64,000 bases of DNA from Euglena gracilis (taxonomy: Eukaryota): the NCBI GenBank assembly GCA_039621445.1, contig CP154954.1:28985837-29049836 (forward strand). The letters run 5' to 3'. A program made the translations under genes and the position numbers. Numbering within the stretch: the first letter of the stretch is position 1; each line of letters opens with the position of its first letter. Below, piece after piece: positions 12,161-31,023 of this stretch. The notes under the pieces were generated by a model. It was not told the DNA's origin, did not search any database, and worked only from the letters and a program-made list of their open reading frames with translations.

Positions 12161-12733
12161 CGGTCTGACCCCGTCATCCTTTTGCCGAAGGGGTGTGAGG
12201 TTGGCACCGCACCAGAACGGGGAGTCTGCTGAGGGGAGGTCCCCATTGACCCAGGTGTTGGTGAGCTTGGCGAGGGCTGAGATCAGGTGTGCCCCTCTAC
12301 CCGGGCGCTTGATTGCGTCTTGCAGGTGAATGGGACGAAGCCCAGAGGGTCCTGGGGCTGACGTTAGCGGGAATCTCAGGATGGCCTCGTGTAAGATGGG
12401 TTCCCATGTAATTGACTGTCCATCTTGGAACGGTGTGATTTTGGCGGGGAGGTTGTTCGGGTCTACCGGCTTTCCGTTCGGATGGAGGGCTTCCAGTTTG
12501 TTCCAAACCTGTGGATCCTGTTGCTGGTGACAGCCTTCCGATAGCAGCAGCTGAAGTGCTTTGGCTGGGGCACCTTCCCCTGTGAGGGTTCTGCCTCTCC
12601 GGAGGGTTCTGTCTGGGAGGGTTGAGGGCTCTGTTCTGGCCTTTTTCTCCGCTCTGGTTTCAATTACCCCTGCAGCGTTCGGATTTGCTAGCTTCTGTGC
12701 TGACCGGAGTTCAGTTAGCAGCGTTCCGTAATC

Positions 12734-14225: not shown

Positions 14226-14229
14226 GATC

Positions 14230-15325
14230 TGTTTCACACCCGTGCTGCCATGTCCCCCGGCAGCACTGGGGTGAAGCGGAAACCCCCGCCCCGGGCCAGT
14301 TTCCGGCGTAGGATCGTGTTTTGGCTCCTCGAGCCGACTTGTGTCGGAAATGTTTTCCCATTCTGCATCCCCCTGTGGCCGAAACTGGGCCATCATTTCC
14401 AAGGAGAAACTTCCCAGTGGACCCTTCCCGACCCCTGAGGGGGGTGTCACTGGGATCTCCAAGGGGGGTGTCTTTGGGGTTTCAACCCCTCCCTGCTCAG
14501 TTGAACCAGTGAGAGCCAACACCCCCCCCTGGGTGTCATTTCTCACAGTTTCTGGGCCAAAAAGGGGGTTTTGGGGTGAAATTTGGCCAGTGGTTGCCTG
14601 AGTTGAAGAGTCCCACCCCCCTGCCCCTTTTGCCACAGATGAGGTGGGGGGGGGAAGACAAACCTCACCTTCTTCAAATGATTGATTGTTTTGTTGATCT
14701 TCCATTTGCAATTGAAATTCCAAATTCAATACTTGATTGTAATTGGATGCAATTGCCACAACAAGTACAATGGTGCAACAGGTAAAGAGGAAAACCCTGT
14801 GAAAAGAAAATGATTTTGATGCCCTTGATGGGCAGTTAAATTTAGGATTGAGTGCGCTGATTCCTAAGCGCTCTCAAATCCCAAATCTTAGCCCATTGCG
14901 TCAAAATCAACCAACCCAGGTCGAAATCAAGGTTTCCCCCCTTGATTTTGATAAATTATGCTGAATTCCATCATTATTGAGCTTTGCAAACCCCTGCAAA
15001 AACTCCAGGAACTCAGGCGCCAATCTCTTAAAATTCTGTTCCAAGCGTTTGCAAGCGCTCTCACCAAATCCAACATTTTCCCTTAAAACCAAAGGAAAAA
15101 TGCATAAAAAGCTTAAAATGTGCTAAATAAACCCAAAATCACCATTTGGGAATACCTAGCATCACTCAATCTCTCTCCTTGCACAACCAAACCATGGGCG
15201 CCCTAGGAGAGGGAATTTTAATGGAAATCTTTAGAAAGCCTTAAAATTAGAGCTAAACCGCCCTTAAAAGGCCTTCTAAAAGGGAAAAACTCCGCCGCCC
15301 GGCGGTCGACCTCAAACGGTCGTCA
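14230..15325 (-). repeat. 3' LTR
   Basis: Near-identical direct repeat of 26649-27744. Confidence 0.95.
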
Positions 15326-15336
15326 CTCCCCCCCTT
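15326..15336 (-). other. Polypurine tract
   Basis: AAGGGGGGGAG on the minus strand, immediately before the 3' LTR TG. Confidence 0.8.
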
Positions 15337-16296
15337 GCGACGAAAGTCGGGGGTTTCACCCCCCCTTCTCGCTTCCTTGGGATGGGAATGAAAGACACTT
15401 TGATTTTTTGTAACGCGCGATAACATTGTTCGGCAATGTGAATAAGTGGTGGCGTAGCGGTGAGGAGGAATCTATAACTCATAGATCCCATTCCACCACA
15501 CCGAGCCCCCCCCCCCCACGGTTCTCACCACCGCGGAAGGAAATGAGGGGCCGACACCACTCAAACAAAAATTCTTTTTGAATGGATAAGAGTCACCCCC
15601 CCCCACGGTATTCCCAACCGTGAAGGGAATGGAGAAGATTGCCCCCCCCCCCCCCCCCCCGGCGAGAGGTGGGCTTGACTTGCCCCCTCCCCCCCGAGGG
15701 GAAAGCCTTGGGTAACCGCCCCCCCCCCAAGCAAAGGGAGGGCTTCCCCCCCCCCCCCCCCCCCGGGGGGAAAGCCTTGGGCAACCCCCCCCCCCCCCCC
15801 GGGCAAAAGGGGGGCTTGCCTTGCCCCCCCCCCCCCCCCGGCGGGGAGGTTGAAGAAGACCACTCACTTCTTTTTTTTTGGAAGTAATAACACGCCCCCC
15901 CCCCGATCAAGCCGACCGGGGTTTCGGGCCTCACTTGCCCAAAGGTGGGGGTACGATAAAATAGCCAATCAAACCGATTGGAGAAAGGGACCCCCCACCA
16001 CGAGTGCCACCGACCCGTGAGAGGGGAGAAATGAAAAATCACAGATTCCTCTTTCATGACTGTGGGCGCAACGGGGCACAGTGTCGTTCGAGTGTGGTCA
16101 GGTTACACTTTCGGCCTGTCCACCGCTCGTGGAAGCTTGATATTCCAGACTTCGAATAATAATTGAGAATCCGTCTTCAACTCGTCCAACTCAGAGTCCC
16201 GGCTCTAGGTTCCGTCCTGAGTAAGTACGAGGAGGCAGGAGGCAGGCAGTTGTATATACATCCCATTCCCCATAAATCCAATGCCATGCAAAGATA

Positions 16297-17639
16297 TTAA
16301 TACCACCAGGGGTAGGGCTGCGGTGGGGGGTATGGGTACGGTTGGGGGGGGTACGGTGGTTGATGTGTGTGGCAGCAATGATTGCAGCTTGGGGGGTTTT
16401 GTTTCCACTGCCACTCCTCCGTGCCCTTGCCGATCCCCTTGTAAGGTATGGGCTTGGGAGCCCAGGGACGGCGGGGGGCCGGAGGGGCTGTGGACTTGGA
16501 GGCGGGCTGAGCTGGGGGCTTGGGTTCGGGGTTGCTTTTGGGCTTCTTTGCTGATGTCGGTGCATCTTCCGCCCTTCGTTTGGGAGGTGGGTGTGTGCGG
16601 TGGTACTGCCGCACAATTTCCTTCCCCATTTCCACCTGGATTCCCCGATTGGCCTTGCCCTTGACTGGGCGTATGGGGCAATCCATCTTACGGTGGCCCA
16701 GCTCGCCACAAAACCAGCAGGTGGCAGGGGGGAAATCCTCCCCCAACCGTCCTTTATTTACAAAAGGGTTCTTCTCGGCTGTACCGATGAGCAGACCGTG
16801 GCCCTTCCCTACCCTTCTCTCACTCCAAACCAGGAGTGAGATTAACAGATGTGCCCATTGAGGAAATCGGCCTCCTCCGACCACAGGAGGAGGTACCGTT
16901 CGCCTCGGAGTTCCTTCCATAATGCAACATGGACCCACACCATGTCCGCATTTGGGAAATGAACAAGCACATGGGACCTTTGTGCTTGCTCGAGGTAAAA
17001 TCCTCGGACCCACCTCCAGTGGTTTTGCCACCGAGAACTTTCCCCCATCACTTCAATCTAATCGGGTACACGGGATGGGAACCAAACCGGCACCCATCCA
17101 TTTATGGCCACATAAGCAAAACCATCCACATCGACAATTCGCTTGACGATGCGGGATTTGCCTTTTGATGTTGGCAAATTCATCTCGCCCCCATCCGGGG
17201 TTGGATGAAATGGTAATTGTCCTTCTCCACCCATCAAAACAATAAAATACGGATCCCCGGCTAGTTTCTCCCAAGCCGTTCGGATGTCCGGATATAAACT
17301 TTCGATAACCACCTGAACTTCCGTTCTCGGGGGTTCAGGGGCATATCGAAAAATAGCGTCCCAAGCATCCGAAAATCCTTCGGTTGCTTGAACCCCATCC
17401 AAACCCGGACAGGGTTGATGGATGAGTTCTGGAAATAAAAACTCAAAAAATGACGAAGAAGCACTGCCCCCATCATTTTTCTGAAGTGCCTTTTCCAGTT
17501 CGGGGGTGACCTCCTCCTCCTCCGAGGGGGCCGCCTCCTCCTCTGTGGGGTTTTCTGTTGGCACGTCCACCTGCATCTGTGAAGGGGCATGGAGTGGGAC
17601 CTCCCCCTCCCCAGGCAACCACTCCAGGCCCTTTTTCAC
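16297..17639 (-). CDS. Additional sense ORF(s) downstream of pol; acidic region followed by a CCHC zinc knuckle (possibly frameshifted)
   Basis: ORFs 17058-17639 (E-rich) and 16297-17031 (CWFCGELGHRKMDC, KGKG- and P/Y-rich tail). Confidence 0.5.
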
Positions 17640-17656
17640 CTCCCTTTCCCCCTTTT

Positions 17657-20600
17657 TCAGGTTGCCGTTGCCTTTAAATCCTTAGAGACATCTAACGGCA
17701 ACCCTTTTCCCAGGCAATACGCTATTACGTCGCTATTGTACTCCTGGAAAAAATGTTCCACCGGTTCCCAATTCGCCTCCTCAAACCCTTGCCACTTCGT
17801 TAAGAAAAACATTTTTCCCTTAACGAACTTGTGGTTTAGGATTTTATCCACAAACCAGGTATCTGGGGCACCTTCCGCCTCAGGTACCGTCCGCCGGTGG
17901 AAAAATATGGGGATAGGCTTATCAGATGTGGGATCCTCCACATACAGCTTCAAAGCCTTCCGATGGGCCTTCATAATATAGCCTGGTTTAACATCAATTA
18001 GGTAGGAGTGAATTGCCTCCCTCGCAGTAACCTTGCAAGGGCCCAACCAACGGGAATCCAATTTTGTGCCACTATCGGGGGGTCTCAGGTACCACACCAG
18101 ATTCCCCACCTCCAATGGCTCCCAACCGTCTAAACCACGGTTGGCCCGAGCACATTGCTTGGCATGCAAATTATTCATTTTGCCAGCCACTACCAAATCA
18201 ATTTCTCTTTGCCGAGAGAAAAATGATCTGGCATCTTCACAATCCCTTAACGGTTCATAAGGTAAACCACCCAATGAACGGTGTCGACCGAACAAGATTT
18301 GAAATGGGCTTAGGCCACTCTCCCCCGGCGTATCATGGATACGGTCTAGTGCTTGGGGGAGGGCTTCAACCCAATTCAACTTGTCCTCAACCTGAATTTT
18401 CTTAAGCCGTTCCATTATTTGTTGGCCAGCCCTCTCCGCCCTACCATTCGCCTGGTGATGGTAGGCCTGGGAGTAGGCTTGCCTAATTCCCATCAAGGCA
18501 CACATTGTCTGCCACCAACCGGCGACAAAATGTGAGCCTAGATCGGAAGTAATAATGGAAGGGACGCCAAAAGGTCTCCAAGCATGCAACAGCATTTGCT
18601 TGGCTGCCTTGGCTCCCGTAAATCCTTTTGCTAGGTGGGGGATCGCCACTATCCAACCGGAGTGACGATCCACACACACAAGCATGGAGTCGTAAGAATT
18701 CCCTTCCCACTCCACGAGAGGCATGCTAAACATGTCAAGGGCCACCGAATACATTACGGCTGGGGGTATGGGTGTAGATTCCACTAAACCCTTAAGACTC
18801 GCCGGCCTTCGGCACGCTTGGCAAGTCCCACAAAGGCCCATGACTCCTTTAGCAAAATCTCGAGCGAGTGAGGAATCAGCCCAATCATACCTAAGGGACA
18901 TGCATTCCCATAGCCTTGGGAATCCCACATGCCCTTGGTATGAGTGGTGATCCCGAATGAGTTTTTCTTGGAGAGATTTGGGCACACAAAGCCTCTCCTC
19001 GAAAAACATTTTGTCACCAAAAACCTTGACAATTTCAGGCCACGGCACCTTTGAATCCTGGGTAGCCTGAAAAATTGGTGACCAACGGGGACATTTTAAA
19101 TATTCCTCCTTCCACGATAAATCCCACACAGAACCAGGGGGGATGGGTGAGGAATCGGTTGTAGAAGTGGCTTCCCCCCCCTCACCACTCAAACCACCTG
19201 AAGACAACACAGGTGATTCTCGGTCTGCCCCAGGTACCTCAGTGGTAGCCGCGGCAGCAGGTTCAGGGGTTGGCATTGTTGGCGAAGCTGGTATAGAAGT
19301 GGGTGTCAATGGAAAATGCTCCCCCCTTGGCTCTTGGACCTCCTCCACAAGACTTGTCTCATTCCCAAACTCGTCAACCCGAGTTGAGAATGAAACATGT
19401 TTTCCTTTTTCTCCCTTGGGGGTGGAGGTTGAACCCAAACCCTGGGGTTTTGTTCCTCCAAGTGGTTCTGACTTCCTATCCCCCGGTCGTGTGCACCGTC
19501 CACCCGCGTCCCCGGACCCCGTGGTAGCACCACCCCGTGTGGTGACTCCACGAATGTATGTGTTGGCTGTGGTTGGTTGGTCCACCAACCGTAGCCACAT
19601 ACATTCGGCTTCCTCCATTTTTTCTGTTTGAATGATTTCCCTCATTTCCTCGGTGTCAAGGGCTGACCCATGCCTTGAAATGTCCTTCAAGGCTTGGGAG
19701 GCCGGGTAAGCCCATCTTGACAATAAATCGGCTATGGTATTCTCCCGCCCCGGGATATACCCAACCGATAGGTCAAATTTTGATAAGATTTGATGCCACC
19801 TAGCCCTTCTCCCAATGGGACCACTTGGTGTGTCTAGAACCTCTCTAGCCCAAGATTCTAGAGCCTTGTGGTCCGTGAGAACCAGGACGGGCTGCAGCCC
19901 AATCCATGATTCCCACTTTTGTAAGGCTAGGATTATGGCATAAGTCTCCTGTTCCCTAGGTACCCAGTTTCTTTGGCTGCCCGTTAGCTTCCTACTCATG
20001 AAGGCGACAGGCACAGTACGCTTGGCCCGTACGTCTTCAGGAGTAGGAGCCCTATCCTCCCCAACCAATTGTTCAAGGGTGGCACCAACCGCATACTGGC
20101 TGGCATCCACTCTTAAAACAAATGGTTTGTCTGGCTTAACGTGTTGTAAAATTAATTCACTGCACAACAGTGATTTAATTTTTTCAAATGCCTCAATGTC
20201 GGATGGTTCCCAAGAAATCCTTTTCTTGGAACCCTTCTTGCCGTCCACTCGAGAAACTTTGAGCTTATCTTGAAGGCAAGCGACAATGTGGGCGTAATCC
20301 TTCACATAGGAGCTGTAATAATTTGTGAACCCCAAAAAAGCACGTAGACCCGTGATTGTTTGGGGTAGCTCCCATTTTTCAATGGCCATCAGCTTTCCAG
20401 GGGATGGTTTTCTCACCCCACCACCCAGAACATGGCCACAAAACTCAACTTCTTTTACGAAAAGACGGCATTTTCTTTTGTCGGCTACAAATCTGTCTTT
20501 TCGTAAAACTTCAAGGACTCTTCGCAAATCCTTGTCATGTGCTGCGAGTAAATCCTCACCAGGACCCACTCGAGTTCCAACCAAAATGTCGTCGATGTAA

Positions 20601-21967
20601 GGATCAGCCACGTCCCCCACCGGGAAGAGGCGATCCTCCATCATTTGCTGAAACTGCTGGCTTGCGTTTGTTAGACCCATCACATTAACCCTCCACTGAA
20701 AAAGACCGAGGGGGGTACTGCAACATGTGATGGGCCGGCTTTCCGGGGCCAACGGCTGTTGGTGGAAAGCCTGCCGTAAATCCAAGATGGAAAACATCAC
20801 GTTTCCACCTTGTTTTACAAGGAGGTCTTCACTTACGGGAAGGGGGTAGGACACACACCTAGTTTGAATGTTAGGCCCCCGCATGTCTACCACTCCCCTC
20901 CATTCGCCTCCTTTTTTCGGCACAACAAATGTTACGGACAGCCATTCCGAAACTGTTCCCTTGGGCAATCGCTCAACAAATTTCAGGTCCCACCATTCCT
21001 GGGTGACCTTTTTGTGAGCTTCAAATCTTTCACCGTGTAACACAAAGGGTTTTTGCCTTGTGGGTACAGCCCCCTCCTTCAGAGGAATCTGGGCGTAACC
21101 ATAAGGTCCCCGAACAGGAGGGTCGGGGGGTACCTCCGTACCCAACACCTCCCCTTCAAAATCCTGAAAAATTCTGTTCCGAAATGCCACTACCCTTGGG
21201 TCCTCCTTCTCACCCAAGTCGCGAGCCTGGATTATGGCATTCACTGCCTTGTCCTCGGCTGGCGATTCGGTGAGATGCCTGGCTATGGTATGCAATTCCT
21301 TCTTGCCAAGGAATCTTGGTTGCATATCAAAGCCCTGCAAGGGCAGATGCAAATTCATTTTTTGCAAATCCAACCACACCTTTTCATTTTCAAGGGACTC
21401 CGTGGTTGGTGCGTTTTCAGGGGATTCTCCGAAGTCAGAAATCACAACCCCAATTCTTTTTTGTGAATTGTGTTTTTTCTTCCCCTTATGGGATTTCCTT
21501 TTCTGATTTCTTGTTTCCCACACGTACGAGAAAGTCAGATTAGGATTGTCAAAAACCAGGGCCTTATGGTGTGGAAACACACCCAAACCATGTTCGGCTA
21601 ACCATGGAAATGATAATATAGCATCTACCTCAATATCCGCGAGGTAGAATTCCCCTTCGAGGTACAAGGCCTGGGTGCCCCCCTGCCCCGTACCCCTGCG
21701 TTGAAAACCCAACTCCAACTTAATACACTGGTCACCCCCCAAAACACATTGGCCGTTGGCAGCCACCAGCCGAATTGGCATTCGCGGTGACCTGGCCAAA
21801 TGTTTTGGGACGATGGACCTTTTGACCAGGTTCACCTGGGCTCCCGTGTCCACCAAAACTTTGAGCTGCTTGGTATCTCCGTTAGGGAGATACGTCTGTG
21901 ATGACATCAAAAGCTGCAGCTCGTTTTCAATGGGCAACACCTGATTGACCTTCAAGGTGTTGGCCAA
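17657..21967 (-). CDS. pol: Gypsy pol polyprotein: aspartic protease, RT, RNase H, integrase, chromodomain
   Basis: 1436-aa open frame: LVDTGAQ, LDLRQAFHQ, YIDDIL, VDASQYAVGA, TDHKALE, H..GHVG..CGTCQ, ALDMF/TSDLG/AERAG, and C-terminal WFVDKILNHK..FLTKWQGF..WEP. Confidence 0.97.
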   Translation of the reverse strand: MANTLKVNQVLPIENELQLLMSSQTYLPNGDTKQLKVLVDTGAQVNLVKRSIVPKHLARSPRMPIRLVAANGQCVLGGDQCIKLELGFQRRGTGQGGTQALYLEGEFYLADIEVDAILSFPWLAEHGLGVFPHHKALVFDNPNLTFSYVWETRNQKRKSHKGKKKHNSQKRIGVVISDFGESPENAPTTESLENEKVWLDLQKMNLHLPLQGFDMQPRFLGKKELHTIARHLTESPAEDKAVNAIIQARDLGEKEDPRVVAFRNRIFQDFEGEVLGTEVPPDPPVRGPYGYAQIPLKEGAVPTRQKPFVLHGERFEAHKKVTQEWWDLKFVERLPKGTVSEWLSVTFVVPKKGGEWRGVVDMRGPNIQTRCVSYPLPVSEDLLVKQGGNVMFSILDLRQAFHQQPLAPESRPITCCSTPLGLFQWRVNVMGLTNASQQFQQMMEDRLFPVGDVADPYIDDILVGTRVGPGEDLLAAHDKDLRRVLEVLRKDRFVADKRKCRLFVKEVEFCGHVLGGGVRKPSPGKLMAIEKWELPQTITGLRAFLGFTNYYSSYVKDYAHIVACLQDKLKVSRVDGKKGSKKRISWEPSDIEAFEKIKSLLCSELILQHVKPDKPFVLRVDASQYAVGATLEQLVGEDRAPTPEDVRAKRTVPVAFMSRKLTGSQRNWVPREQETYAIILALQKWESWIGLQPVLVLTDHKALESWAREVLDTPSGPIGRRARWHQILSKFDLSVGYIPGRENTIADLLSRWAYPASQALKDISRHGSALDTEEMREIIQTEKMEEAECMWLRLVDQPTTANTYIRGVTTRGGATTGSGDAGGRCTRPGDRKSEPLGGTKPQGLGSTSTPKGEKGKHVSFSTRVDEFGNETSLVEEVQEPRGEHFPLTPTSIPASPTMPTPEPAAAATTEVPGADRESPVLSSGGLSGEGGEATSTTDSSPIPPGSVWDLSWKEEYLKCPRWSPIFQATQDSKVPWPEIVKVFGDKMFFEERLCVPKSLQEKLIRDHHSYQGHVGFPRLWECMSLRYDWADSSLARDFAKGVMGLCGTCQACRRPASLKGLVESTPIPPAVMYSVALDMFSMPLVEWEGNSYDSMLVCVDRHSGWIVAIPHLAKGFTGAKAAKQMLLHAWRPFGVPSIITSDLGSHFVAGWWQTMCALMGIRQAYSQAYHHQANGRAERAGQQIMERLKKIQVEDKLNWVEALPQALDRIHDTPGESGLSPFQILFGRHRSLGGLPYEPLRDCEDARSFFSRQREIDLVVAGKMNNLHAKQCARANRGLDGWEPLEVGNLVWYLRPPDSGTKLDSRWLGPCKVTAREAIHSYLIDVKPGYIMKAHRKALKLYVEDPTSDKPIPIFFHRRTVPEAEGAPDTWFVDKILNHKFVKGKMFFLTKWQGFEEANWEPVEHFFQEYNSDVIAYCLGKGLPLDVSKDLKATAT

Positions 21968-22039
21968 ATGACACCAACGGTCTGGAATTTCCCATTCCTA
22001 AAAATCCTGGGAACTTTGGGAAATTTCTTTGGGCTGGTC

Positions 22040-22700
22040 CCCCTGAAAATCCCCAGCACTTAGGAGATAATCAATCACCAGGGGGGGTATTCTTCCTTTT
22101 TGTCGGGGGGTAAACTTCATTTTTCTCCCCCCCAACAATTCACGGTGCCGGAGTTGCCCATTGTCCCCCATCACCAGGTTAGGACACGATCCGCCATCTC
22201 ACAACACCGACCGTAGTTGTGAAATGGCTGGGCAGCACCAGAAACGTGTGGGCTTTTTATAACCCCAATCCGAAAACTGACAATAATCAGTGTCGATATA
22301 GGGCAGGTTTTTCACCACCTCCCTATTTCGCAAAAGACCAGTGCGGGGGTTCTCCAACCACCACAACTTGGGCTGAAAATAATTTATAATTTCCAGGTTT
22401 TCTCCACCAGGGCATCCGCCTGGGAGAAATCCCTTGGCCTGGGGTTATAAGCCGTGGAATAAATATTACAGGGGGGACTAGCGGCAATAACCTCAAAAAA
22501 TCCAACCGGGTATCGCCTGTAGTCCCAGGTCAAAATGTGTGTGTGGGGGTGGAAGTCCGTCCAAGGAGCATTTTCAATTGACAAAACTTCATACCCCCGT
22601 TCTACCAACCGCCTCCCAACCGAACCTGTGCCAGCGAATAAATCTAATGCCTGAGGTCGCTGAGCTGGTGGCAGGGGGTTGGGTTGTGGCAGATTTGAAT
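22040..22700 (-). pseudogene. Cytosine-5 DNA methyltransferase domain (frameshifted)
   Basis: LDLFAGTGS (motif I) and ASPPC (IV). After a 1-nt shift near 22395: WWLENP (VI), DYCQFSDWGYKKPTRFW (VIII-like). Then RIPPLVIDYLL (X-like) in the pol frame. Confidence 0.88.
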
Positions 22701-22926
22701 GCAAAACGGGAACCCTTGAACATTTTCCTTCCCTCCAGGAGTAACGAGTCCGATTCAAAAATCTGGGGGGCTGATCCATAGAATGTTTTCCCCCACACCC
22801 TGAATCAGCCATAAAATCCTGTACAGCCCAGTTTTTTGAATCAGAAGTATTTACACCGTTTTCCTCACAGGGGGGAGAGACACGGCCATGGGCAGCCACC
22901 CCCTTCTCAAACTGCCCCTGGCCCCC

Positions 22927-25288
22927 CTATTGGGCCCCTGGGGGAGAAGAGGTGGGCCCACCCCCCTTTGACCATGCACCCCCCTTGCCCGAGGAATTTC
23001 GCTGAGTGGCTGGCTGCCCTTTACCCTTGGGCTGCCCCTTGCCTTTTCCATTATTTTGCCAAAATTCCTTAGATTTAGCAAGGGCCTCACTCAGCGGCTT
23101 GTTACACTCATAAAAATAATGCCCGCACTCCCCACAGTTGAAGCATGGATATGGGGACCTGCCCCTACCCGATGCCTGCGGGGTCCAGGTCTGCCCCCCC
23201 TTGCCTTGCCGGGCTGGGGGTGCTGGACTTTGGGTTCGCGACCATGAAGCTGCACCTGGCCGCGAAGACGAAAAAGGGGACCTGCCCCGCTGGGCTGGCT
23301 GGGCTGGCCCCTTATCTCCCTTTGGAGCTGGCTGTGGGGCAGATTTTAAGGTGTGACCCTGCCCCCCGGCTGCTGGTGTTGACACAGAGGTTGGGGACAC
23401 CGGGGGGGTTTGGCCTTTTTCCAACACCTGTATTTTCCCTGAGCCTTTTGTTGTCGATTTGCTGAATAATCTGGGAAAATGGTGCTGATTCAAAGCCAAA
23501 TCCTGCTTCTCCCGAAGAGCTAACTTGCCCTCGGCAAAAGCAAACATTTCCTCAACGGTCATTAGTTGTTCCACCAATTCAGCGTTGAGGAAATTTTCCA
23601 TTCCCTGCAATTTCCTTCGATTTACGGCTGTTAATTTCAGTGCCTCCTCCGAAGAACTGAAATAAATAAGGCAAAAGGCACCAGGGTTTTTGATAACCAC
23701 CTTCCGTGGATCAATCCCCCCAGTGATCTGGCTCACACTCCTTTTAATCCCATCCACCGTGGGATTTGGTATCCCTGTGAGCCTGACAATGGGTTGTTTA
23801 CGGGCTCGGTTATCCTCCTCTTCTATGCAAAACTTGCTTAAAAAAGGAGGAATTCTTTCCAAAAATAATCTCCGAGCCTCCCCAGCTGTGGCATCCTTAA
23901 CATGGTGCCAGGCACTGCAAAATTTAATCCAAAATTCTTGCAGATCAGCCCGGGTAATTTTTCCTTCGTTTACCATAGTTACCTCCTGCCATATTTTCCG
24001 AGCCGTTAGCCCCTTACTCGAGGCATAACGGTTCTGGAACTGAGCCAATATGGTGGGGTAACTTAATTTAGCTCCATTCAACCGATAGAGCCTGATTTCC
24101 TCCCTTAATCTGGGTCCTAAACATGCCTCAAAAACCTGCAGCTTTTGCAAATCAGAATACGGTTTCCCTGATGTCAACCAGTAAAGATGTCAACCAGTAA
24201 AGATTCCAATCTACTTCAAAATCTTGCCAGGAAATGCTGCCCGATTCATCAAAATAGGGCTTAGCACCTCCCTGCAAAATTTCAAAAGCTACTGGGTCAC
24301 CGATAAAAGGAAAACCCAACCCGTGTCCTGGGTTGGCTGCAGCCCCCCCTGTCCCGATAGGCCTAATCGAGAAAGCAGGGGCTGCAGAAATATGTGGAGG
24401 GACACACAATGACACAGAAGAAACCACTGCTGTGTCTTGCGTGTCCTCCAAAACAAATCCCCCCTCAATCACTAAGGGAGGGGAAATGTTTGAAACTGCA
24501 GATTTATTATGAGAAAAAATCTGATCTGAAAAAGCTGGGTCAGCACTGGGCACCGTGCTGGCCAGTGAGCTGGACTGAGGCTGCCCCAGGGGCTGCTGCT
24601 GTCCAGCCGACGGCAGGCTCAGCCCCATTGGCAGCCTGTGAGCAGGCTGCGGCTGGCCTGCTGGCTGGCCAGGCTGCTGGGCTAGCTGGACGACGGGCTG
24701 CTGGGCCAGCTGCTGCCCAGGCTGTGGCAGCCCCGCTGGGTGTAGGGGCTGCTGGCTGCCCTGCCGCAGCCACCACATGTCAGATTTTTTTTGCAAAACC
24801 CCTCTCGGTTCTGCAATTGGGTGTACGGGTCCATTTTTTTGTAAATCCTGCAGCACTTTCTGTAACTCGAAAGTGTTCCCCCCAACTTTTGCAAGTCCCT
24901 GCCTTAATTCCTCCACCAGCCCACCAAATTTTTTCTCCTGGGAAAAAATCAGCTGATAAACACTCTGAAAATTCTGCTCACAATCCGTCAGCAGTTCTTG
25001 TATTTCTGAGTGTCGTTTCCCTACTTCATCTGAAATATTCTGGTGCAGTTTTTGAATACCCCCACCAAAACCATGGAGGGCTGTATTCATCGCTGAATTT
25101 TGTTCACCCAGCTGGCGAACATAATCAGCGAACTGCTGGAGCTGCTGAGCCTGGCCCTGTACCGTACTACGCAGCGATACCAGGTCAGCCTGAACTTCAA
25201 TGATTTTGGCAGCGACAACGGCCAGCTCCTGGAGAGTTTCTGCCTCCCCCCCCCTGAGCTGGCTGGGCGGCTTTAAAATTCTCAGCAA
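22927..25288 (-). pseudogene. gag: gag (coiled-coil N-part, capsid-like region, CCHC knuckle), split by a 16-bp tandem duplication
   Basis: CFNCGECGHYFYEC. Duplication GATGTCAACCAGTAAA at 24170-24185/24186-24201 explains the frameshift between ORFs 24152-25288 and 22927-24177. Overlapping ORFs up to ~26600 may be further frameshifted N-terminal parts. Confidence 0.85.
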
Positions 25289-26635
25289 ACCGCTGAAAAT
25301 TTTTAAGCACGAGATCCTTAATTGGTAAGGCAGCCACCTGATTTTGCACTTGTTTCAAACTTTCCTGTGGCAGGCTGTCCAAAATTCGTAAAAATTCCTG
25401 CCTCAGGGCCAAAAACTGATCACATCTCGAAGAAAACTGCGGGGCCAGTTTTTCCTCAAAACTTTTTTCCTGCCCGACAAAAAGGTCAAGTGCCTGTGCG
25501 TCAATTTTTTGCACTGAAATTTTCACCTGGGCCTCACATTTTTTCTCAAAAAGTTCAAAAACCTGCAGGCAGTCAGCCCTGGCCGTTTCTTCGATTCATG
25601 CAGCCATGTGCTCCACCAGGTGGATGTCGACAGCGGGGGGTTGTTGTTGCTGCTGCGGCAGAACCCACTCTTCGTTGGCTTTTTCCAAAGCCAAAACCCG
25701 AAAAGTCAGCTGCTGCACTGTCCACTGGAGGTCTCTGTTACTTTGTAAAAATTGCCCCCAGGGGTCTTCAAATCCCTGATTTTGTGAACCCCCCCTGGGG
25801 GTGGCTTCAGAACTTTCATAGGCTGGGGGTTGGACCTCCTCCTCACCCCCCTCGATGAAAATATGAGGAGGCTGGGGGGCTGCAGCAGCTGCTGGCTGAC
25901 CGTGATCAACCTCACGGTGCAGCCGTTTTTGCTGAACTTCATCACTACCTGGTGATGAAGCTGGTGTTCGGGGTGTCCGAGTAGAAGTAGAGCTGGGATG
26001 GTCCTTCGGGTTTTCCTCTGCCCCTCGACTTCTGCTATGACCCGCTCGTTGCTGTCCCAATTATTATTGTTTAAGCCCAGCACATGGCCCTGTGCTTGCT
26101 TTTCAAAGAAAACTGGGCTGGGGTTATCACCCCCCTGCCCTGACGAGGCACTTGCCGTTTCCTTCGCCAGCCCATCTACCTGGGATGGTTGGGAAAACTG
26201 CAAAAGTGCCACCGGCTCTTGGGCTGGTGTTGAAGAAACTGGTTGAGCTGGAGGCAAAGGCAATGCAAAAGCGGGTAATGATGGCAGATTCCCTAAATTT
26301 TGCACCCATGAAAAGTCTGGGAGAGGTTGCAACTCAGGCAGCACAAAACCGTACCCCATATTTTGCAAAGGCAAAACCCCTGAAAAAGGCTCTGGAAAAC
26401 ACGGTTGGTTGGAAATGACAACCTGGCCATCCCCACCCTGAAATTCCAACATCTGTCCCATATTTGTGGGGGTTCTGAGTTCAGCCAAACTGGTTTCGGG
26501 TCCCAACTCCCTGTTCCCCGAAATTCCAATCGTCAGATTTGCCATCTGAGATTGGGCCATTGGCTGATCGTCAAAGAAAACATTCTGAGCAGGGATTTCC
26601 AACCCACAATTTCCGACAGAAGGCTGAAGGATCAA

Positions 26636-26648
26636 CCTCTGCTTACCA
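26636..26648 (-). other. Primer-binding site (initiator-Met tRNA-like)
   Basis: TGGTAAGCAGAGG directly after the 5' LTR, similar to the complement of tRNAiMet 3' ends (TGGTAGCAGAGG). Confidence 0.75.
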
Positions 26649-27744
26649 TATTTCACACCCGTGCTGCCATGTCCCCCGGCAGCACTGGGGTGAAGCGGAA
26701 ACCCCCGCCCCGGGCCAGTTTCCGGCGTAGGATCGTTTTTTTGGCTCCTGGAGCCGACTTGTGTCGGAAATTTTTTCCTATTCTGCTCCCCCCTGTGGCC
26801 GAAACTGGGCCATTATTTCCAAGGAGAAACTTCCCAGTGGACCCTCCCCGACCCCTGAGGGGGGTGTCACTGGGATCTCCAAGGGGGGTGTCTTTGGGGT
26901 TTCAACCCCTCCCTGCTCAGTTGAACCAGTGAGAGCCAACACCCCCCCCTGGGTGTCATTTCTCACAGTTTCTGGGCCAAAAAGGGGGTTTTGGGGTGAA
27001 ATTTGGCCAGTGGTTGCCTGAGTTGAAGAGTCCCACCCCCCTGCCCCTTTTCCCACAGATGAGGTGGGGGGGGAAGACAAACCTCACCTTCTTCAAATGA
27101 TTGATTGTTTTGTTGATCTTCCATTTGCAATTGAAATTCCAAATTCAACACTTGATTGTAATTGGATGCAATTGCCACAACAAGTACAATGGTGCAACAG
27201 GTAAAGAGGAAAACCCTGTGAAAAGAAAATGATTTTGATGCCCCTGATGGGCAGTTAAATTTAGGATTGAGTGCGCTGATTCCTAAGCACTTTCAAATCC
27301 CAAATCTTAGCCCATTGCATCAAAATCAACCAACCCAGGTCAAAATCAAGGTTTCCCCCCTTGATTTTGATAAATTATGCTGAATTCCATCATTATTGAG
27401 CTTTGCAAACCCCTGCAAAAACTCCAGGAACTCAGGCGCCAATCTCTTAAAATTCTGTTCCAAGCGTTTGCAAGCGCTCTCACCAAATCCAACATTTTCC
27501 CTTAAAACCAAAGGAAAAATGCATAAAAAGCTTAAAATGTGCTAAATAAACCCAAAATCACCATTTGGGAATACCTAGCATCACTCAATCTCTCTCCTTG
27601 CACAACCAAACCATGGGCGCCCTAGGAGAGGGAATTTTAATGGAAATCTTTAGAAAGTCTTAAAATTAGAGCTAAACCGCCCTTAAAAGGCCTTCTAAAA
27701 GGGAAAAACTCCGCCGCCCGGCGGTCGACCTCAAACGGTCGTCA
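26649..27744 (-). repeat. 5' LTR
   Basis: Direct repeat of 14230-15325. Its inner end reads TA instead of CA. Confidence 0.95.
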
Positions 27745-28058
27745 GATCGTGTTTCCAGAAAATCCATTATCCAGTCCCAGCGTCTTTGTAGGAAGGTGGG
27801 GTTTTGAAAGATATTGCCCAGGGGTCGTCCAAGTTGACAGTCATGTGTTTCGATTCGCCAACGAGCCCAGAGGGGGAAGTTTTCCTGGCAGAGGTAGCAC
27901 GTTACAAAGGGGAGCGTTGGTTGGATCTGTTGGTTGACTGACGTGCTTGGCCCTGAGGCTGCCGGCCTGGTGCGGGTCCAACGCCAACTTTGTCCATTTA
28001 GGCAAATGTCTTCCTAGACTTCCTCGGGGTTTTCTTGGGGGCGGGACCGGCCTGCCGG

Positions 28059-28571: not shown

Positions 28572-28732
28572 GCACGGCACGGCACGGCACGGCACGGCAC
28601 GGCACAGCACGGCACGGCACGGCACGGCACGGCACGGCACGGCACGGCACGGCACGGCACGGCACGGCACGGCACGGCACGGCACGGCACGGCACGGCAC
28701 GGCACGGCACGGCACGGCACGGCACGGCACGG
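28572..28732. repeat. (GGCAC)n pentanucleotide microsatellite
   Basis: About 32 units, one variant. Confidence 0.97.
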
Positions 28733-29189
28733 CGCGCGTCTCGCGTCTCGCGCGGCTCCCGTGCTCGCGCGTCGCCCGTGCGGGCGCGTCGCCTGTGTCG
28801 GCGTGCTGTTCTTTTGCCGTCGGGACGGCTCACCGCGTGCTGTTGCACCCGCCTGTCACTTGGGCGGTTTCACTTCGATTTCCGTTGGCCTGACCCTGAG
28901 GGGCGTGGGCCCTTTCTTTTTTTTTTGTGGGGGGGGGGTGGTGCTACCATCTGCGAGGTTTCTCACCTCGGCCGTGTGCATTGGATGCGGATGGGGCCCA
29001 CATTCATTCCATCTTCGGTCATGGATGCTCTTTGCCATCCTTGCATATCCACCGCCGCCACGGAGGTTCCTCGTTGTGGGCCTGGTGCTGTCCTGGGCGG
29101 TGGTGCATCCCGCGGCGCTGATGTTAGCGGGAGCTCCTCCTGCCCTCGTGCTGCCAACACAGCAGAGAGTTGCTCAGCCACAAACGCCA

Positions 29190-30485
29190 TCAATGCCGAG
29201 GAGATACGGAAATGTCTTGGGCCAAGTGTTGCCTTGCCCAGCCTTGTTTGTCGCCTAGTGCTTGCTTCACCAGCCGGCCAAGTAGCCCTGAGCCCAGGGG
29301 GCCCAGACCTGACCATGGGTGGAATGACAGTGGACTGAACAGCCATCCGGCCGACTCGCATATTGGCTGGTTTTTGGTGATCTTCTTGTGTTCTGCCATG
29401 GCCATGTTCTTCACTGCTAGGTCTTCTTCCCAGGACAACCCTTTTCGGAGCGGGTGAAAGACGACAAGGTCCACCGCCAAGGGCCCCGCAGGATCAACTC
29501 CATCAAATGCCACATCGGCTGGGCGCTTCTTTCCACCGACGGCCATCTCTGTCCTTGTGTGGACACCAGTCTCCCGGAGGACCATTGCCAGCGCATCTCG
29601 TACTGCATTGTGGCGCAAGACGAGTTTTTTTTTTTTGCAGCATAGCAAATGGTCCCCGAAGGGATCCAGGGAATCACCACACATGGGGCATGGGGCTCCG
29701 GATGCCCATGGAGAGATCTTGGCTCCAAGCCACCACCGTAGCAGCAGGCGGTACTTTGTTGCTTGTATGCGCGTCCCCATTCCTTTGTTTGGGACCGTCT
29801 GCACCCAGGCTGTGGTGTGCGGCATGGATTGCAGGCGCAGCCGGCACTTGTCCCGGAGTGGGAGGACCTTCTTCAGGGCATCTTTTCGTGCTAGATGGAC
29901 CTTATCTGACCACCAACGCTGACTTCTGTGGTCATCCTCGACGTTCACCGGTTGCTTCCTCTCTACCCACTCTGGTAGTGGAGAGAACTGTACGCCCAAG
30001 GTGCATTGCAGCTCCTTTGTGACCTCGATGAAATCCGATGGCGTTGTGCATGCTTGGGGTGGGAATTGGAGCAGTTGGAACTGTTTTAGTGCACACAAAA
30101 TGCCTGCCATCCGTTCTGGTGCTTGGAGGACGGTGGGGACCTTGATTCCCAGCCCTGCCATGCGGAGTGGCAAGCTGCATTGGGCCCACTGGGATTCACT
30201 TGTCGATGGCTGGCCGATGGTGTCGTCCCATGCTCTGCGGATGACCCGATCTGCTGCTTGAAGAGGGCCCTGCAAGGCGTCTGACCGCAAAGCGCGAAGG
30301 AAATGCATGACCTTGCAAGCATCCAGACAGTACCGGAGCAAAATGTGCTGGCACTGTGGGTCGCCCAGGTTGCTCAAGACGTGGCACGATTCTTCAAGTT
30401 TGTCCACTACTGCTTGCATCTCCTTCTGGCGAAACGTCGTCGTGGTTGGGTGCTCCACTGGAAAGCCGAGGACTCACAAGCCTTG
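29190..30485 (-). mobile_element. 5'-truncated CRE-like non-LTR element of a second, divergent family (RT thumb, zinc finger, RLE)
   Basis: GL*VLGFPVEHP, LLRYCLDACKV, LPLRMAGLG, CPMCGDSLDPFGDHLLCC, RHNAVRD, RPADV, AVDL, HPWSGLGP. Colinear with the 10163-12160 protein. Confidence 0.88.
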
Positions 30486-31023
30486 TCGGGGTGGGGGAAA
30501 GGCCGGCAGAGGGGACTGCGGCAGCACCCAGGGGAGGGACAGGCCCGCCCGGGCTCACCGAGGGAGAGATCCTTGGTGGCGTCTCCCTGGGATCACAGCC
30601 CATCGTAAACCCCGATAAGGTGTGGGCCAGCCTGTTGGTGCTTGGGGGAGTCGGGGTGGGGGAAAGGCCGGCAGAGGGGACTGCGGCAGCACCCAGGGGA
30701 GGGACAGGCCCGCCCGGGCTCACCGAGGGAGAGATCCTTGGTGGCGTCTCCCTGGGATCACAGCCCATCGTAAACCCCGATAAGGTGTGGGCCAGCCTGT
30801 TGGTGCTCGGGGGAGTCGGGGTGGGGGAAAGGCCGGCAGTGGGGACTGCGGCAGCACCCAGGGGAGGGACAGCCCGCCCGGGCTCACCGAGGGAGAGATC
30901 CTTGGTGGCGTCTCCCTGGGATCACAGCCCATCGTAAACCCCGATAAGGTGTGGGCCAGCCTGTTGGTGCTCGGGGGAGTCGGGGTGGGGGAAAGCTCGG
31001 CAGTGGGGACTGCGGCAGCACCC
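30485..31023. repeat. Tandem repeat, 165-bp unit, ~3.2 copies
   Basis: Units start at 30485, 30650, 30815 and 30979 (GTCGGGGTGGGGGAAAG...). Confidence 0.92.

What the first reader, a model, noticed from the sequence alone, without database searches (positions are those of the whole stretch)
21998..22899. Chromovirus with a cytosine-5 DNA methyltransferase fused ahead of pol
Seen: between gag and protease lie motifs LDLFAGTGS, ASPPC, WWLENP, DYCQF..GYKKPTRFW and RIPPLVIDYLL. The last block is in frame with the 1436-aa pol, separated only by one TAG (21998-22000). Established: these are C5-MTase motifs I, IV, VI, VIII, X; DNMT-carrying retrotransposons are known from Symbiodinium dinoflagellates and a charophyte alga. 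Inference: the ancestral polyprotein was DNMT-PR-RT-RH-IN-chromodomain, combining a methylation writer with a chromatin reader. This is probably an independent or undescribed instance in a euglenid-like host. The DNMT has frameshifts and a stop in this copy while pol is open.
Basis: partly seen in the sequence, partly recalled or inferred. Interest (0 to 1): 0.85.

Follow-up and report, generated by a model that had tools for sequence, protein, structure and literature searches.

The report
Retrotransposon carrying a cytosine DNA methylase
This is a recently inserted but damaged copy of a high-copy LTR retrotransposon whose polymerase protein begins with a small cytosine DNA methyltransferase and ends with a chromatin-reading domain, a design already reported in 2018 and in a 2026 preprint, here without the adenine methylase of the published form.

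Summary
On the minus strand lies a 13.5-kb Ty3/gypsy chromovirus (LTRs 14230-15325 and 26649-27744, 98.4% identical, TSD GATC). Between gag and protease sits a compact C5-DNMT of about 200 aa (22049-22650).

The window pieces miss Pfam PF00145. Relatives at 52-84% identity pass it. A model of a 52%-identical relative (P0002) matches DNMT3, M.HhaI and DNMT1 folds. Its best viral match is a 218-aa Tetraselmis virus 1 methylase.

This copy is broken by one missing base (~22395), a TGA (22199-22201) and a TAG (21998-22000). Contigs from public runs show other copies reading GAG and TGT at the two stops, and some carry the extra base. Relative P0009 (80-86% identical) reads DNMT-PR-RT-RH as one ORF. 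The inferred DNMT-PR-RT-RH-IN-chromodomain polyprotein is therefore supported.

It is not undescribed. A May 2026 preprint names DNMT+DAM+chromodomain elements of Euglena and Cymbomonas "EpiLTRs". The window's RT branches among such polyproteins, but the element has no DAM.

A DAM does lie just outside the 3' LTR, in another retroelement's ORF that this element split.

The host could not be named. Verdict: a DAM-less variant of a known kind, of moderate interest.

The parts
27745..27748 (-). Target-site duplication GATC, upstream copy
   Evidence: GATC flanks both ends of the element
26649..27744 (-). 5' LTR (TG...TA here, TG...CA in the 3' copy)
   Evidence: 1095 bp at 98.356% identity to 14232-15325; 19 differences in 1097 columns
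26629..26648 (-). Putative primer-binding site, starts TGG directly after the 5' LTR
   Evidence: sequence read directly; the matching tRNA was not identified
25706..26648 (-). First internal ORF (the open frame runs up into the LTR); no family match
24152..25354 (-). 400-codon ORF; only sub-threshold Pfam hits to coiled-coil-type families
22930..24189 (-). gag-like ORF with CCHC zinc knuckle (23104-23145)
   Evidence: no Pfam family at E<=0.1
22927..22929 (-). TAG ending gag, in frame with the linker and the DNMT N-half
   Evidence: no well-supported alternative letter listed here in other copies (23 weaker differences not shown)
22651..22926 (-). 92-codon linker between the gag stop and the DNMT
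   Evidence: 7 of 14 listed copy differences are synonymous
22400..22650 (-). DNMT N-half: motif I (LDLFAGTGS), motif IV (ASPPC), in the gag frame
22395..22399 (-). Frameshift: the window copy is one base short in a C run on the minus strand
   Evidence: an extra G behind 22395 in 11, 6 and 5 contigs of X1, X3 and X10
22202..22394 (-). DNMT middle: motif VI (ENP) and the DYCQFSDWGYKKPTRFW block, in the pol frame
22199..22201 (-). In-frame TGA at a nearly invariant Cys column
   Evidence: other copies read TGT in about 75-81% of DNA-run depth
22049..22198 (-). DNMT C-terminal part: short Cys/His-containing stretch in the usual position of a target-recognition region, then RIPPLVIDYLL (motif X-like)
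21998..22000 (-). In-frame TAG between DNMT and pol, private to this copy or rare
   Evidence: other copies read GAG in 113342 of 113442 depth units in X1, and likewise in X3, X10, X15; Glu in P0009
17657..21997 (-). Open pol frame, 1446 codons. Protease DTG at 21850; RT 20429-20923 (YIDD at 20599); RNase H 19775-20212; integrase 18458-18985; chromodomain 17756-17851
16297..17681 (-). Two ORFs after pol (207 and 251 codons); the second carries a CCHC knuckle (16678-16719)
15326..15338 (-). Polypurine tract (AAGGGGGGGAG) abutting the 3' LTR
14230..15325 (-). 3' LTR
14226..14229 (-). Target-site duplication GATC, downstream copy

Best explanation
The locus is one copy of a high-copy Ty3/gypsy chromovirus family. 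Its Pol polyprotein starts with a compact C5 cytosine DNA methyltransferase of about 200 aa, placed upstream of the protease, and ends with a chromodomain.

Shown:
- The element is complete: LTRs, TSD, a PBS-like site and a PPT.
- The methylase belongs to the C5-MTase fold. Its catalytic Pro-Cys and Glu-Asn-Pro are kept.
- In relatives, and in most other copies in public runs, DNMT and pol form one open frame.
- This copy's DNMT is disabled by one missing base, a TGA and a TAG, while its pol stays open.
- The element carries no DAM.

Inferred (about 40% for the whole chain):
- DNMT-Pol is made by read-through of the in-frame gag TAG.
- The protease releases the DNMT inside the particle.
- The enzyme methylates the element's own cDNA or the new integrant.
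- The chromodomain steers integration to marked chromatin.
- New copies would therefore arrive already carrying the host's 5mC mark.
- The window copy, having lost the enzyme, could only move with proteins supplied by intact copies.
For: Element anatomy: LTR pair 1095 bp at 98.4%; TSD GATC, with an empty-site ORF restored on removal; PR-RT-RH-IN plus a weak Chromo hit by Pfam.

Methylase membership:
- P0002 (52% identical) scores 24.8 bits on PF00145 against a cut-off of 22. P0124 scores 33.0 and P0024 28.2 bits.
- The AF2 model of P0002 has pLDDT 85.1 and pTM 0.82.
- All listed top Foldseek PDB matches are C5-MTases: DNMT3B/3A, M.HhaI, M.HaeIII, DNMT1 and Dnmt2, at E about 1e-8 to 4e-7.
- The family profile hits DNMT1 chains at E 2e-5.
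- P97, C98, E137, N138 and P139 are invariant in 31 of 31 sequences. The window keeps 29 of 32 conserved columns.

Single ORF in the family:
- P0009 aligns to the window at 83% over 979 aa, from the DNMT into RNase H, without a stop.
- 10 stored proteins read DNMT-RT-IN-CHR.
- Other copies read GAG at 22000 (about 100% of depth) and TGT at 22199 (about 75-81% in the three DNA runs). 11, 6 and 5 contigs in X1, X3 and X10 carry the extra base.

Constraint: 10 of 17 listed copy differences inside the DNMT are synonymous against 23% expected (p 0.0015; p 0.025 if 33% is expected).

No DAM: none by Pfam, none by motif scan, and none by tblastn with 7 DAM-bearing polyproteins at E<=1e-4 inside the LTR pair.
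Against: - The window's own three pieces give no PF00145 hit at E<=0.1. The only hit is a sub-threshold D12 N6-MTase match over motif I.
- P0001 (20.6 bits) and P0003 (21.4 bits) fall just under the PF00145 cut-off.
- TM-scores to solved DNMTs are only about 0.45-0.56.
- No activity or target sequence was tested.
- Everything laid is Logan contigs, not reads. Depth is not copy number, rare variants are dropped, and 23 weaker differences were not shown.
- The extra base is seen in only 17-51% of the local depth in the DNA runs.
- About 19-25% of DNA-run depth shares the TGA, and one contig per run skips 522 bases of the DNMT. Part of the family therefore does without the enzyme.
- Read-through of the gag TAG is inferred only. 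The RNA fold downstream is no better than shuffles (z 0.23).
- Transcription rests on runs whose RNA label is a guess.
Confidence: 0.8

Rival explanations
1. The methylase is a decaying passenger. The family captured it once, retrotransposition does not need it, and copies such as this one, with open pol and broken DNMT, show it is being lost.
For: The window copy is young (LTRs 98.4% identical). Its pol is open over 1446 codons, yet its 0.6-kb DNMT has three lesions. About 19-25% of DNA-run depth shares the TGA, and one contig per run lacks 522 bases of the DNMT.
Against: Catalytic columns are invariant across 31 sequences at 30-55% identity. 10 of 17 listed differences in the DNMT are synonymous. 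The TAG at the DNMT/pol junction is absent from about 100% of other depth. Dozens of diverged polyproteins keep the domain in frame.
Confidence: 0.15
2. The domain is not a DNA cytosine methylase in function. It would be an RNA m5C enzyme (Dnmt2-like), or would act on the RNA-DNA hybrid or single-stranded cDNA, or be a catalytically silent DNA-binding module.
For: The stretch in the usual position of a target-recognition region is very short, about 50 aa between the PTRFW block and motif X. S. pombe Dnmt2 is among the fold matches (rank 37). The preprint reports that TE-borne DAMs gave no 6mA in E. coli and raises hybrid substrates.
Against: The top fold matches are DNA enzymes. The best viral match is a 218-aa giant-virus 'putative cytosine DNA methyltransferase' of the same compact size. 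Retrotransposon DNMTs of other classes methylate CG de novo (PMC5890265, abstract).
Confidence: 0.1
3. The DNMT segment is foreign to the element: a nested fragment or an assembly chimera sitting between gag and pol in this copy only.
For: The window does contain nesting, since the element itself sits inside another retroelement's ORF. The preprint warns of nested insertions and assembly artefacts in Euglena.
Against: The segment shares frames with gag on one side and pol on the other. P0009 and at least 10 full-length proteins from other sources carry it in one ORF with pol. Contigs of four runs cover all 30 bins of the segment, at summed depths like those of the flanking gag and pol ends in the three DNA runs.
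Confidence: 0.02

Closest known systems
EpiLTRs of Euglena gracilis and Cymbomonas tetramitiformis (bioRxiv 10.64898/2026.05.21.726589, May 2026; Results parts 1-2 and found passages read, supplements closed)
   Same: Ty3/gypsy-type LTR element with a chromodomain and a C5-DNMT in the polyprotein. The window's RT-RH falls in a 17-row clade (100/100 support) with four polyproteins that carry DNMT and DAM: P0024, P0025, P0031, P0041.
   Different: There is no DAM anywhere inside the LTR pair. EpiLTRs are defined by having both methylases. Whether the stored DNMT+DAM proteins are the published Euglena elements cannot be checked, because sources are unnamed and the figures and supplements were not visible.
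KnitGypsy-Dnmt3 of Klebsormidium nitens (PMC5890265, section 9 read)
   Same: A Gypsy-type retrotransposon with a DNMT inside the Pol ORF, conserved key residues, and purifying selection on the DNMT.
   Different: That DNMT is of the Dnmt3 class, and the section read mentions no chromodomain. The preprint places the EpiLTR DNMT as sister to DNMT4, apart from DNMT3. The domain here is about 200 aa, and its best viral structural match is a giant-virus enzyme. I ran no DNMT-class phylogeny.
SymbioLINE-Dnmt and SymbioDIRS-Dnmt3 of Symbiodinium (PMC5890265, section 6 read)
   Same: Retroelements that encode a C5-DNMT.
   Different: Those are LINE and DIRS backbones (endonuclease or tyrosine recombinase). 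This element has an LTR/DDE-integrase/chromodomain backbone.
Putative cytosine DNA methyltransferase of Tetraselmis virus 1 (BFVD A0A2P0VN45, 218 aa)
   Same: Best structural match of the family model: E 1.2e-17, TM 0.70/0.80, rmsd 2.4, 31% identity over 224 columns. It has the same compact size.
   Different: It is a free-standing giant-virus gene, not part of a retroelement. No tree was built, so neither the direction of transfer nor any transfer at all is shown.

Membership tests
C5 cytosine DNA methyltransferase (Pfam PF00145 fold) | Motif I, the FxGxG AdoMet-binding loop | tested here: met
   LDLFAGTGS in the window. L38, F39, G41, T42 and S44 are at least 90% conserved in the family and kept here. 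Motif numbering is recalled.
C5 cytosine DNA methyltransferase (Pfam PF00145 fold) | Motif IV Pro-Cys with the catalytic cysteine | tested here: met
   ASPPC in the window. P97 and C98 are invariant in 31 of 31 sequences.
C5 cytosine DNA methyltransferase (Pfam PF00145 fold) | Motif VI Glu-Asn-Val | tested here: met
   Present as ENP. E137, N138 and P139 are invariant in 31 of 31 sequences and kept in the window.
C5 cytosine DNA methyltransferase (Pfam PF00145 fold) | Score at or above Pfam's gathering cut-off (22 bits) | tested here: inconclusive
   The window pieces give no PF00145 hit. Relatives pass: P0002 24.8, P0024 28.2, P0124 33.0 bits. P0001 (20.6) and P0003 (21.4) fall just below.
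C5 cytosine DNA methyltransferase (Pfam PF00145 fold) | Three-dimensional fold of solved C5-MTases | tested here: met
   Tested on relative P0002, not on the broken window copy. The model has pLDDT 85.1. All listed Foldseek PDB matches are DNMT3A/B/C, M.HhaI, M.HaeIII, DNMT1, MET1 or Dnmt2, with probability 1.00.
C5 cytosine DNA methyltransferase (Pfam PF00145 fold) | Intact reading frame and catalytic activity | tested here: not met
   The frame is broken in this copy by one missing base, a TGA and a TAG. Activity cannot be tested with these tools.
Chromovirus (Ty3/gypsy LTR retrotransposon with chromodomain) | LTR pair, target-site duplication, PBS/PPT, and domain order PR-RT-RH-IN | tested here: met
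Chromovirus (Ty3/gypsy LTR retrotransposon with chromodomain) | Chromodomain at the C-terminus of the integrase | tested here: inconclusive
   The window scores 17.4 bits on PF00385 against a cut-off of 25.1. Relatives aligned to the very end of pol pass: P0024 35.4, P0041 37.5, P0034 27.1 bits.
EpiLTR (DAM + DNMT + chromodomain LTR element) | A DNA adenine methyltransferase (DAM) domain encoded by the element | tested here: not met
   No Dam or D12 family above threshold in any element ORF. No N/D-PP-Y/F/W motif in the sense-strand frames of the element other than chance SPP strings. tblastn with 7 DAM-bearing polyproteins hits only 13676-14095, outside the 3' LTR.
EpiLTR (DAM + DNMT + chromodomain LTR element) | Shared descent of the RT backbone with DNMT+DAM elements | tested here: met
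   RT-RH tree of 36 rows. The window plus P0009 (100/100) lies inside a 17-row clade (100/100) holding 6 DAM-bearing rows.
EpiLTR (DAM + DNMT + chromodomain LTR element) | Host is Euglena gracilis or Cymbomonas tetramitiformis | not testable with these tools
   Organism names are coded, clusters carry no names, and no genome is held.
Dnmt3-class retrotransposon DNMTs (KnitGypsy-Dnmt3, SymbioDIRS-Dnmt3) | DNMT domain branching within the Dnmt3 clade | not tested
   No reference DNMT sequences were available to build the tree. DNMT3 chains top the PDB fold list, but at 13-19% identity. The preprint places EpiLTR DNMTs as sister to DNMT4.

The most novel reading that the evidence does not exclude
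DAM-less DNMT-chromoviruses like this one may be the backbone from which the dual-methylase EpiLTRs arose, more than once, by capture of a DAM.

The window would then show the physical route. A DNMT-chromovirus has landed, in the same orientation, inside the DAM-encoding ORF of a separate DAM-RT retroelement. Its 3' LTR lies about 130 bp upstream of the nearest DAM-homologous stretch (230 bp from the Pfam-matched core). Read-through transcripts and template switching could join the two.

The compact DNMT itself may have come from a giant virus of algae.
Probability: 0.2. Interest if true: 0.6.

Novelty: new variant of a known kind. Interest (0 to 1): 0.4.

Why it matters
Retrotransposons that carry their own DNA methylase invert the usual picture of methylation as a host weapon against them.

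This locus adds three points to what is in print:
- The DNMT-chromodomain design exists without the adenine methylase. By RT phylogeny it is interleaved with the dual-methylase form, so the DAM has been gained or lost repeatedly.
- The methylase is a very small enzyme of about 200 aa whose nearest viral structural match is a giant-virus protein. That bears on where the module came from.
- A DAM can lie within about 130 bp of such an element simply through nesting. This is a practical warning for screens that assign domains to transposons by proximity.

None of this overturns current views. The central claim of the finding was published in 2018 and extended in 2026.

Tried and rejected
- Pfam on the three window DNMT pieces gave no PF00145 hit. 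The only hit was a sub-threshold D12 match on motif I, so membership had to be shown through relatives.
- Host identity could not be settled. Rfam found 0 families and ARAGORN 0 tRNAs. Pfam on 13 plus 56 ORFs outside the element found only RT and Dam of other retroelements. Cluster look-up of 10 relatives gave no organism names, and run organisms are coded. The 'euglenid' host is left open.
- The RNA fold of 100 nt after the gag TAG is no more stable than shuffles (z 0.23; 116 of 200 shuffles fold as well). Pseudoknots cannot be predicted with this tool, so read-through remains an inference.
- blastp of gag, the two upstream ORFs, the two post-pol ORFs and the linker against all 269 stored proteins gave no hit at E<=1e-3. 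These parts stay unexplained.
- The idea that the DAM next to the element belongs to it was rejected. It lies outside the LTR and TSD, and removing the element restores a 586-codon ORF.
- A DNMT-class phylogeny against DNMT1/3/4/5/6 was not attempted for lack of reference sequences.
- Supplements of both papers were not visible. They may list DNMT-only elements.
Full report
THE ELEMENT

The finding lies on the minus strand of a complete LTR retrotransposon. Two direct repeats of 1095 bp, at 14232-15325 and 26651-27744, are 98.356% identical. Read on the minus strand they start TG. The 3' copy ends CA, which extends the LTRs to 14230 and 26649. Over 1097 aligned columns they differ at 19 positions: 17 substitutions and 2 indels.

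GATC flanks both ends (14226-14229 and 27745-27748). A TGG-initiated primer-binding-like site follows the 5' LTR, and a purine tract (AAGGGGGGGAG) abuts the 3' LTR. The element is 13,515 bp, and it is the only copy in the window.

Internal layout, 5' to 3' on the minus strand:
- Two ORFs without family matches (to 25706, and 25354-24152).
- A gag-like ORF with a CCHC knuckle (24189-22930), ending in TAG (22927-22929).
- A 92-codon linker, in the same frame as gag.
- The methylase segment (22650-22049).
- A 16-codon linker, then TAG (21998-22000).
- A 1446-codon open pol, with protease DTG, RT (PF00078, E 1.4e-16), RNase H (E 4.8e-24), integrase (PF00665, E 6.9e-9) and a weak chromodomain hit (17.4 bits against a cut-off of 25.1).
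- Two further ORFs, one with a second CCHC knuckle, and C-rich 69-bp repeats before the 3' LTR.

THE OBSERVATION

The damage is more specific than 'frameshifts and a stop'.
- The N-half (motifs I and IV) is in the gag frame. The rest is in the pol frame.
- The switch needs one base that is missing in a C run near 22395-22399.
- A TGA at 22199-22201 replaces a nearly invariant Cys.
- The TAG at 21998-22000 separates the domain from pol.

IS IT A C5-MTASE?

Taken alone, the window pieces fail Pfam PF00145. The only hit is a sub-threshold D12 N6-MTase match over the AdoMet loop.

Sequence evidence:
- A word-indexed search with the N-half found 3 proteins at E<=0.001 among 66 candidates. One was P0002, a whole 254-aa protein, 52% identical, that covers all three window pieces.
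- P0002 scores 24.8 bits on PF00145 against a cut-off of 22. P0001 and P0003 score 20.6 and 21.4 bits. Other relatives score 28.2 bits (P0024) and 33.0 bits (P0124).
- In an alignment of 31 family members at 30-55% identity to P0002, the Pro-Cys of motif IV and the Glu-Asn-Pro of motif VI are invariant.
- The window keeps 29 of the 32 columns that are at least 90% conserved. The exceptions are D60E, D75H and the TGA at C188.
- The family profile hits DNMT1 chains at E 2e-5.

Structural evidence:
- An AlphaFold2 model of P0002 built on that alignment has mean pLDDT 85.1 and pTM 0.82.
- Foldseek against the PDB returns only C5-MTases among the listed matches: DNMT3B/3A/3C, M.HhaI, M.HaeIII, DNMT1, MET1 and Dnmt2. 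E-values run from 1.8e-8 to 4.4e-7 and TM-scores from about 0.4 to 0.56.

The fold criterion is therefore met for the family. The window copy is a recently broken member.

Size and relatives of the domain:
- It is unusually small. Only about 50 residues lie between the PTRFW block and motif X, with conserved Cys and His.
- Against predicted viral structures, the best match by a wide margin is the 218-aa 'putative cytosine DNA methyltransferase' of Tetraselmis virus 1: E 1.2e-17, TM 0.70/0.80, 31% identity.
- The family is large. An exhaustive HMMER scan with P0002 finds 2674 cluster representatives at E<=0.001, 1245 at E<=1e-10 and 177 at E<=1e-30.
- More distant members are fused to an N6/N4 MTase or to DUF5872, DUF5754 or DUF5824. 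I recall these DUFs as giant-virus families but did not test that.

IS DNMT-POL ONE ORF IN THE FAMILY?

Two independent lines say yes.

Line 1, database proteins:
- A search for longer proteins with P0002 gave 124 hits at E<=0.001 among 2073 candidates, of which 120 were listed.
- All 266 stored proteins match the DNMT. Among them, 49 also match the window's RT-RH segment, 21 its integrase, 16 its chromodomain and 41 a DAM domain.
- Ten read DNMT-RT-IN-CHR in one chain. Three read DNMT-DAM-RT-IN-CHR and one reads DAM-DNMT-RT-IN-CHR (Pfam coordinates for 12 of them).
- The nearest relative, P0009 (1035 aa, JGI), aligns to the window at 79.7% over 79 aa and 83.35% over 979 aa, running from the DNMT through RNase H without a stop. 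It has Cys at the TGA position and Glu at the TAG position.

Line 2, other copies in public runs:
- Twenty runs from 17 studies hold part of the stretch, under coded organism names A, B and C.
- I laid Logan contigs of four runs (X1, X3, X10, X15) on 21900-23000 at 85% likeness or more. 990, 1154, 446 and 28 contigs aligned, covering all 30 bins.
- At 22000 the other letter turns TAG into GAG. It holds 113342 of 113442 depth units in X1, 126009 of 126131 in X3, 14699.5 of 14699.5 in X10 and 27.1 of 27.1 in X15.
- At 22199 the other letter turns TGA into TGT. It holds 40091 of 53139 (X1), 99064 of 123776 (X3), 15314 of 18913 (X10) and 11.8 of 34.2 (X15).
- An extra G behind 22395 appears in 11, 6 and 5 contigs of X1, X3 and X10. 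That is 28%, 17% and 51% of local depth. X15 has an extra base behind 22398 instead.
- No well-supported alternative was listed at the gag TAG (22927-22929), but 23 weaker differences were not shown.
- One contig per run in X1 and X3 skips 522 bases (21998 to 22521). This is a rare derivative lacking most of the DNMT.

Caveats for line 2: these are contigs, not reads. Depth is not copy number, and rare variants are dropped.

CONSTRAINT ON THE DNMT

I classified 39 of the 40 listed differences; a second, minor alternative at 22398 was left out. Inside the DNMT, 10 of 17 are synonymous, against 23% expected for random single-base changes. This gives p 0.0015, or p 0.025 if 33% is assumed to allow for transition bias.

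The window's H at the conserved D75 column is D in other copies. This is a rough test on a truncated list. It agrees with the invariance of catalytic residues across diverged proteins.

RELATION TO WHAT IS PUBLISHED

De Mendoza et al. 2018 (PMC5890265; abstract and sections 6 and 9 read) describe three element types: SymbioLINE-Dnmt, SymbioDIRS-Dnmt3 and KnitGypsy-Dnmt3. The last carries a Dnmt3 in the Pol ORF of a Gypsy element with Ka/Ks below 0.2. There is no 'SymbioLTR' in those sections.

A May 2026 preprint (bioRxiv 10.64898/2026.05.21.726589; abstract, Results parts 1-2 and found passages read) reports 'EpiLTRs' in Cymbomonas tetramitiformis and Euglena gracilis.
- These are LTR elements with a chromodomain, a DAM and a DNMT.
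- Their DNMTs form one group, sister to DNMT4 and distinct from the Dnmt3 captures.
- The preprint notes that Euglena DNA is heavily 5mC-methylated.
- It also notes that nested insertions may create chimeric calls.

A full-text search for Euglena + retrotransposon + DNA methyltransferase + chromodomain returned only this preprint: 1 paper of 1.

POSITION OF THE WINDOW ELEMENT

I built an RT-RH tree of 36 rows. Of the 50 RT matches, only those covering at least 330 of 420 query residues were kept. 'noDAM' rows include some truncated ORFs.
- The window pairs with P0009 (100/100).
- The pair sits in a 17-row clade (100/100) with DAM-less full-length proteins (P0006, P0007, P0020) and a DAM-bearing subclade (P0024, P0025, P0031, P0041; 100/99).
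- Over the whole tree, starred branches force at least 6 changes of the DAM label.

The window element itself has no DAM. Pfam finds none in any element ORF. No N/D-PP-aromatic motif occurs apart from chance strings. tblastn with 7 DAM-bearing polyproteins hits nothing inside the LTR pair at E<=1e-4.

It therefore fails the defining feature of an EpiLTR while sharing the EpiLTR backbone and DNMT. It is a DAM-less variant. The preprint's screen started from DAM domains, so such elements may not have been reported. I could not see the supplements.

THE DAM NEXT DOOR

The same tblastn hits a DAM-like stretch at 13676-14095, just outside the 3' LTR, at about 26-32% identity to the DAMs of the query polyproteins. 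Pfam Dam (PF05869) scores 28.9 bits there, against a cut-off of 28.1.

Removing the element and one GATC copy joins 88 codons upstream of 27748 to 498 codons downstream of 14230, giving one 586-codon ORF. That ORF is followed, in frame after one stop, by an 856-codon ORF with RVT_1. Relatives of this DAM ORF are 1601-2053-aa proteins with RVT_1, and one of them carries Dam.

The DNMT-chromovirus thus inserted, in the same orientation, into the DAM-encoding ORF of a different retroelement.

HOW IT LIKELY WORKS

Shown: the enzyme domain sits at the N-terminus of Pol, upstream of the protease. It is conserved, and it is in one frame with pol in the family.

Inferred:
- gag ends in TAG, and the following 92-codon linker is in the same frame.
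- The linker's first ATG is TTG in essentially all other depth (22779), and 7 of 14 listed linker differences are synonymous.
- I therefore favour read-through of the gag stop as the way DNMT-Pol is made. This would resemble the in-frame read-through recalled for gammaretroviruses. It is not supported by the fold test.
- Once made, the protease would free the DNMT in the particle.
- Retrotransposon DNMTs of other classes methylate CG de novo, and self-methylation of cDNA has been proposed for them (PMC5890265, abstract).
- CpG is depleted throughout the window (observed/expected 0.50-0.57, against 0.64-0.87 for GpC). This fits a methylated genome.
- I put about 40% on the full chain: read-through, then release, then methylation of the element's own cDNA or new integrant, with chromodomain-guided integration.
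- The window copy, young by its LTRs but with a dead DNMT and an open pol, could only move with proteins supplied by intact copies, if the enzyme matters at all.

VERDICT

The claim of an undescribed kind is not supported.

What is new here is modest:
- A DAM-less variant interleaved with EpiLTR-type elements.
- The giant-virus-like compactness of the DNMT.
- A documented nesting that places a foreign DAM about 130 bp from the element.

Noticed in passing
window 12734-14229 plus 27749-28013 (minus strand): The DNMT element split a DAM-encoding ORF of another retroelement. Removing it and one GATC copy restores a 586-codon ORF with a Pfam Dam hit (28.9 bits). Proximity-based domain assignment would wrongly give this DAM to the chromovirus.
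   Followed up: yes
window 10163-12733 (minus strand): An 856-codon ORF with RVT_1 follows the DAM ORF in frame after one stop. Relatives P0267-P0269 are 1601-2053-aa RT proteins, one with Dam and one with an SLBP RNA-binding domain. No integrase type was found, so the class (DIRS-like or other) is open.
   Followed up: partly
window 22830-22929 (minus strand): The gag TAG is in frame with the DNMT-pol frame and is followed by codons for GGQGQ. The first ATG of the linker (22777-22779) is TTG in other copies. This suggests stop-codon read-through, but the local RNA fold is no better than shuffles.
   Followed up: partly
window 21998-22521: One contig each in runs X1 and X3 joins 21998 to 22521, skipping 522 bases. 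This is a rare derivative of the family that lacks most of the DNMT.
   Followed up: no
window 16297-17681 and 15646-15836 (minus strand): Two ORFs lie after pol. The second is proline-rich and has a second CCHC zinc knuckle. C-rich 69-bp tandem repeats (2.7 copies) follow, before the 3' LTR. There are no relatives among the 269 stored proteins.
   Followed up: partly
window 47515-64000: A 213-bp satellite, 77.4 copies at 97% match, runs to the end of the window with a constant GC skew of about 0.18.
   Followed up: no
window 28572-28733 and 30485-31023: A (GCACG)n microsatellite of 32 copies, and a 165-bp tandem repeat of 3.3 copies at 98% match.
   Followed up: no
window 2-1024 (plus strand): Another reverse-transcriptase fragment (RVT_1, E 8.8e-8) at the window's left end, on the opposite strand. 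The whole window looks repeat-derived, and no host gene was recognised.
   Followed up: partly
whole window: CpG observed/expected is 0.50-0.57 in the main compartments tested (element as a whole, its internal region, flanks, satellite; 0.41 for the 5' LTR alone), against 0.64-0.87 for GpC. This fits a CpG-methylated genome. 3 of the 17 LTR substitutions are CG-to-CA changes.
   Followed up: partly
proteins P0086 and P0092: Two DNMT(+DAM) family members are filed at NCBI under the carnivorous plant Genlisea aurea. They may come from organisms in its traps rather than from the plant. Not examined.
   Followed up: no
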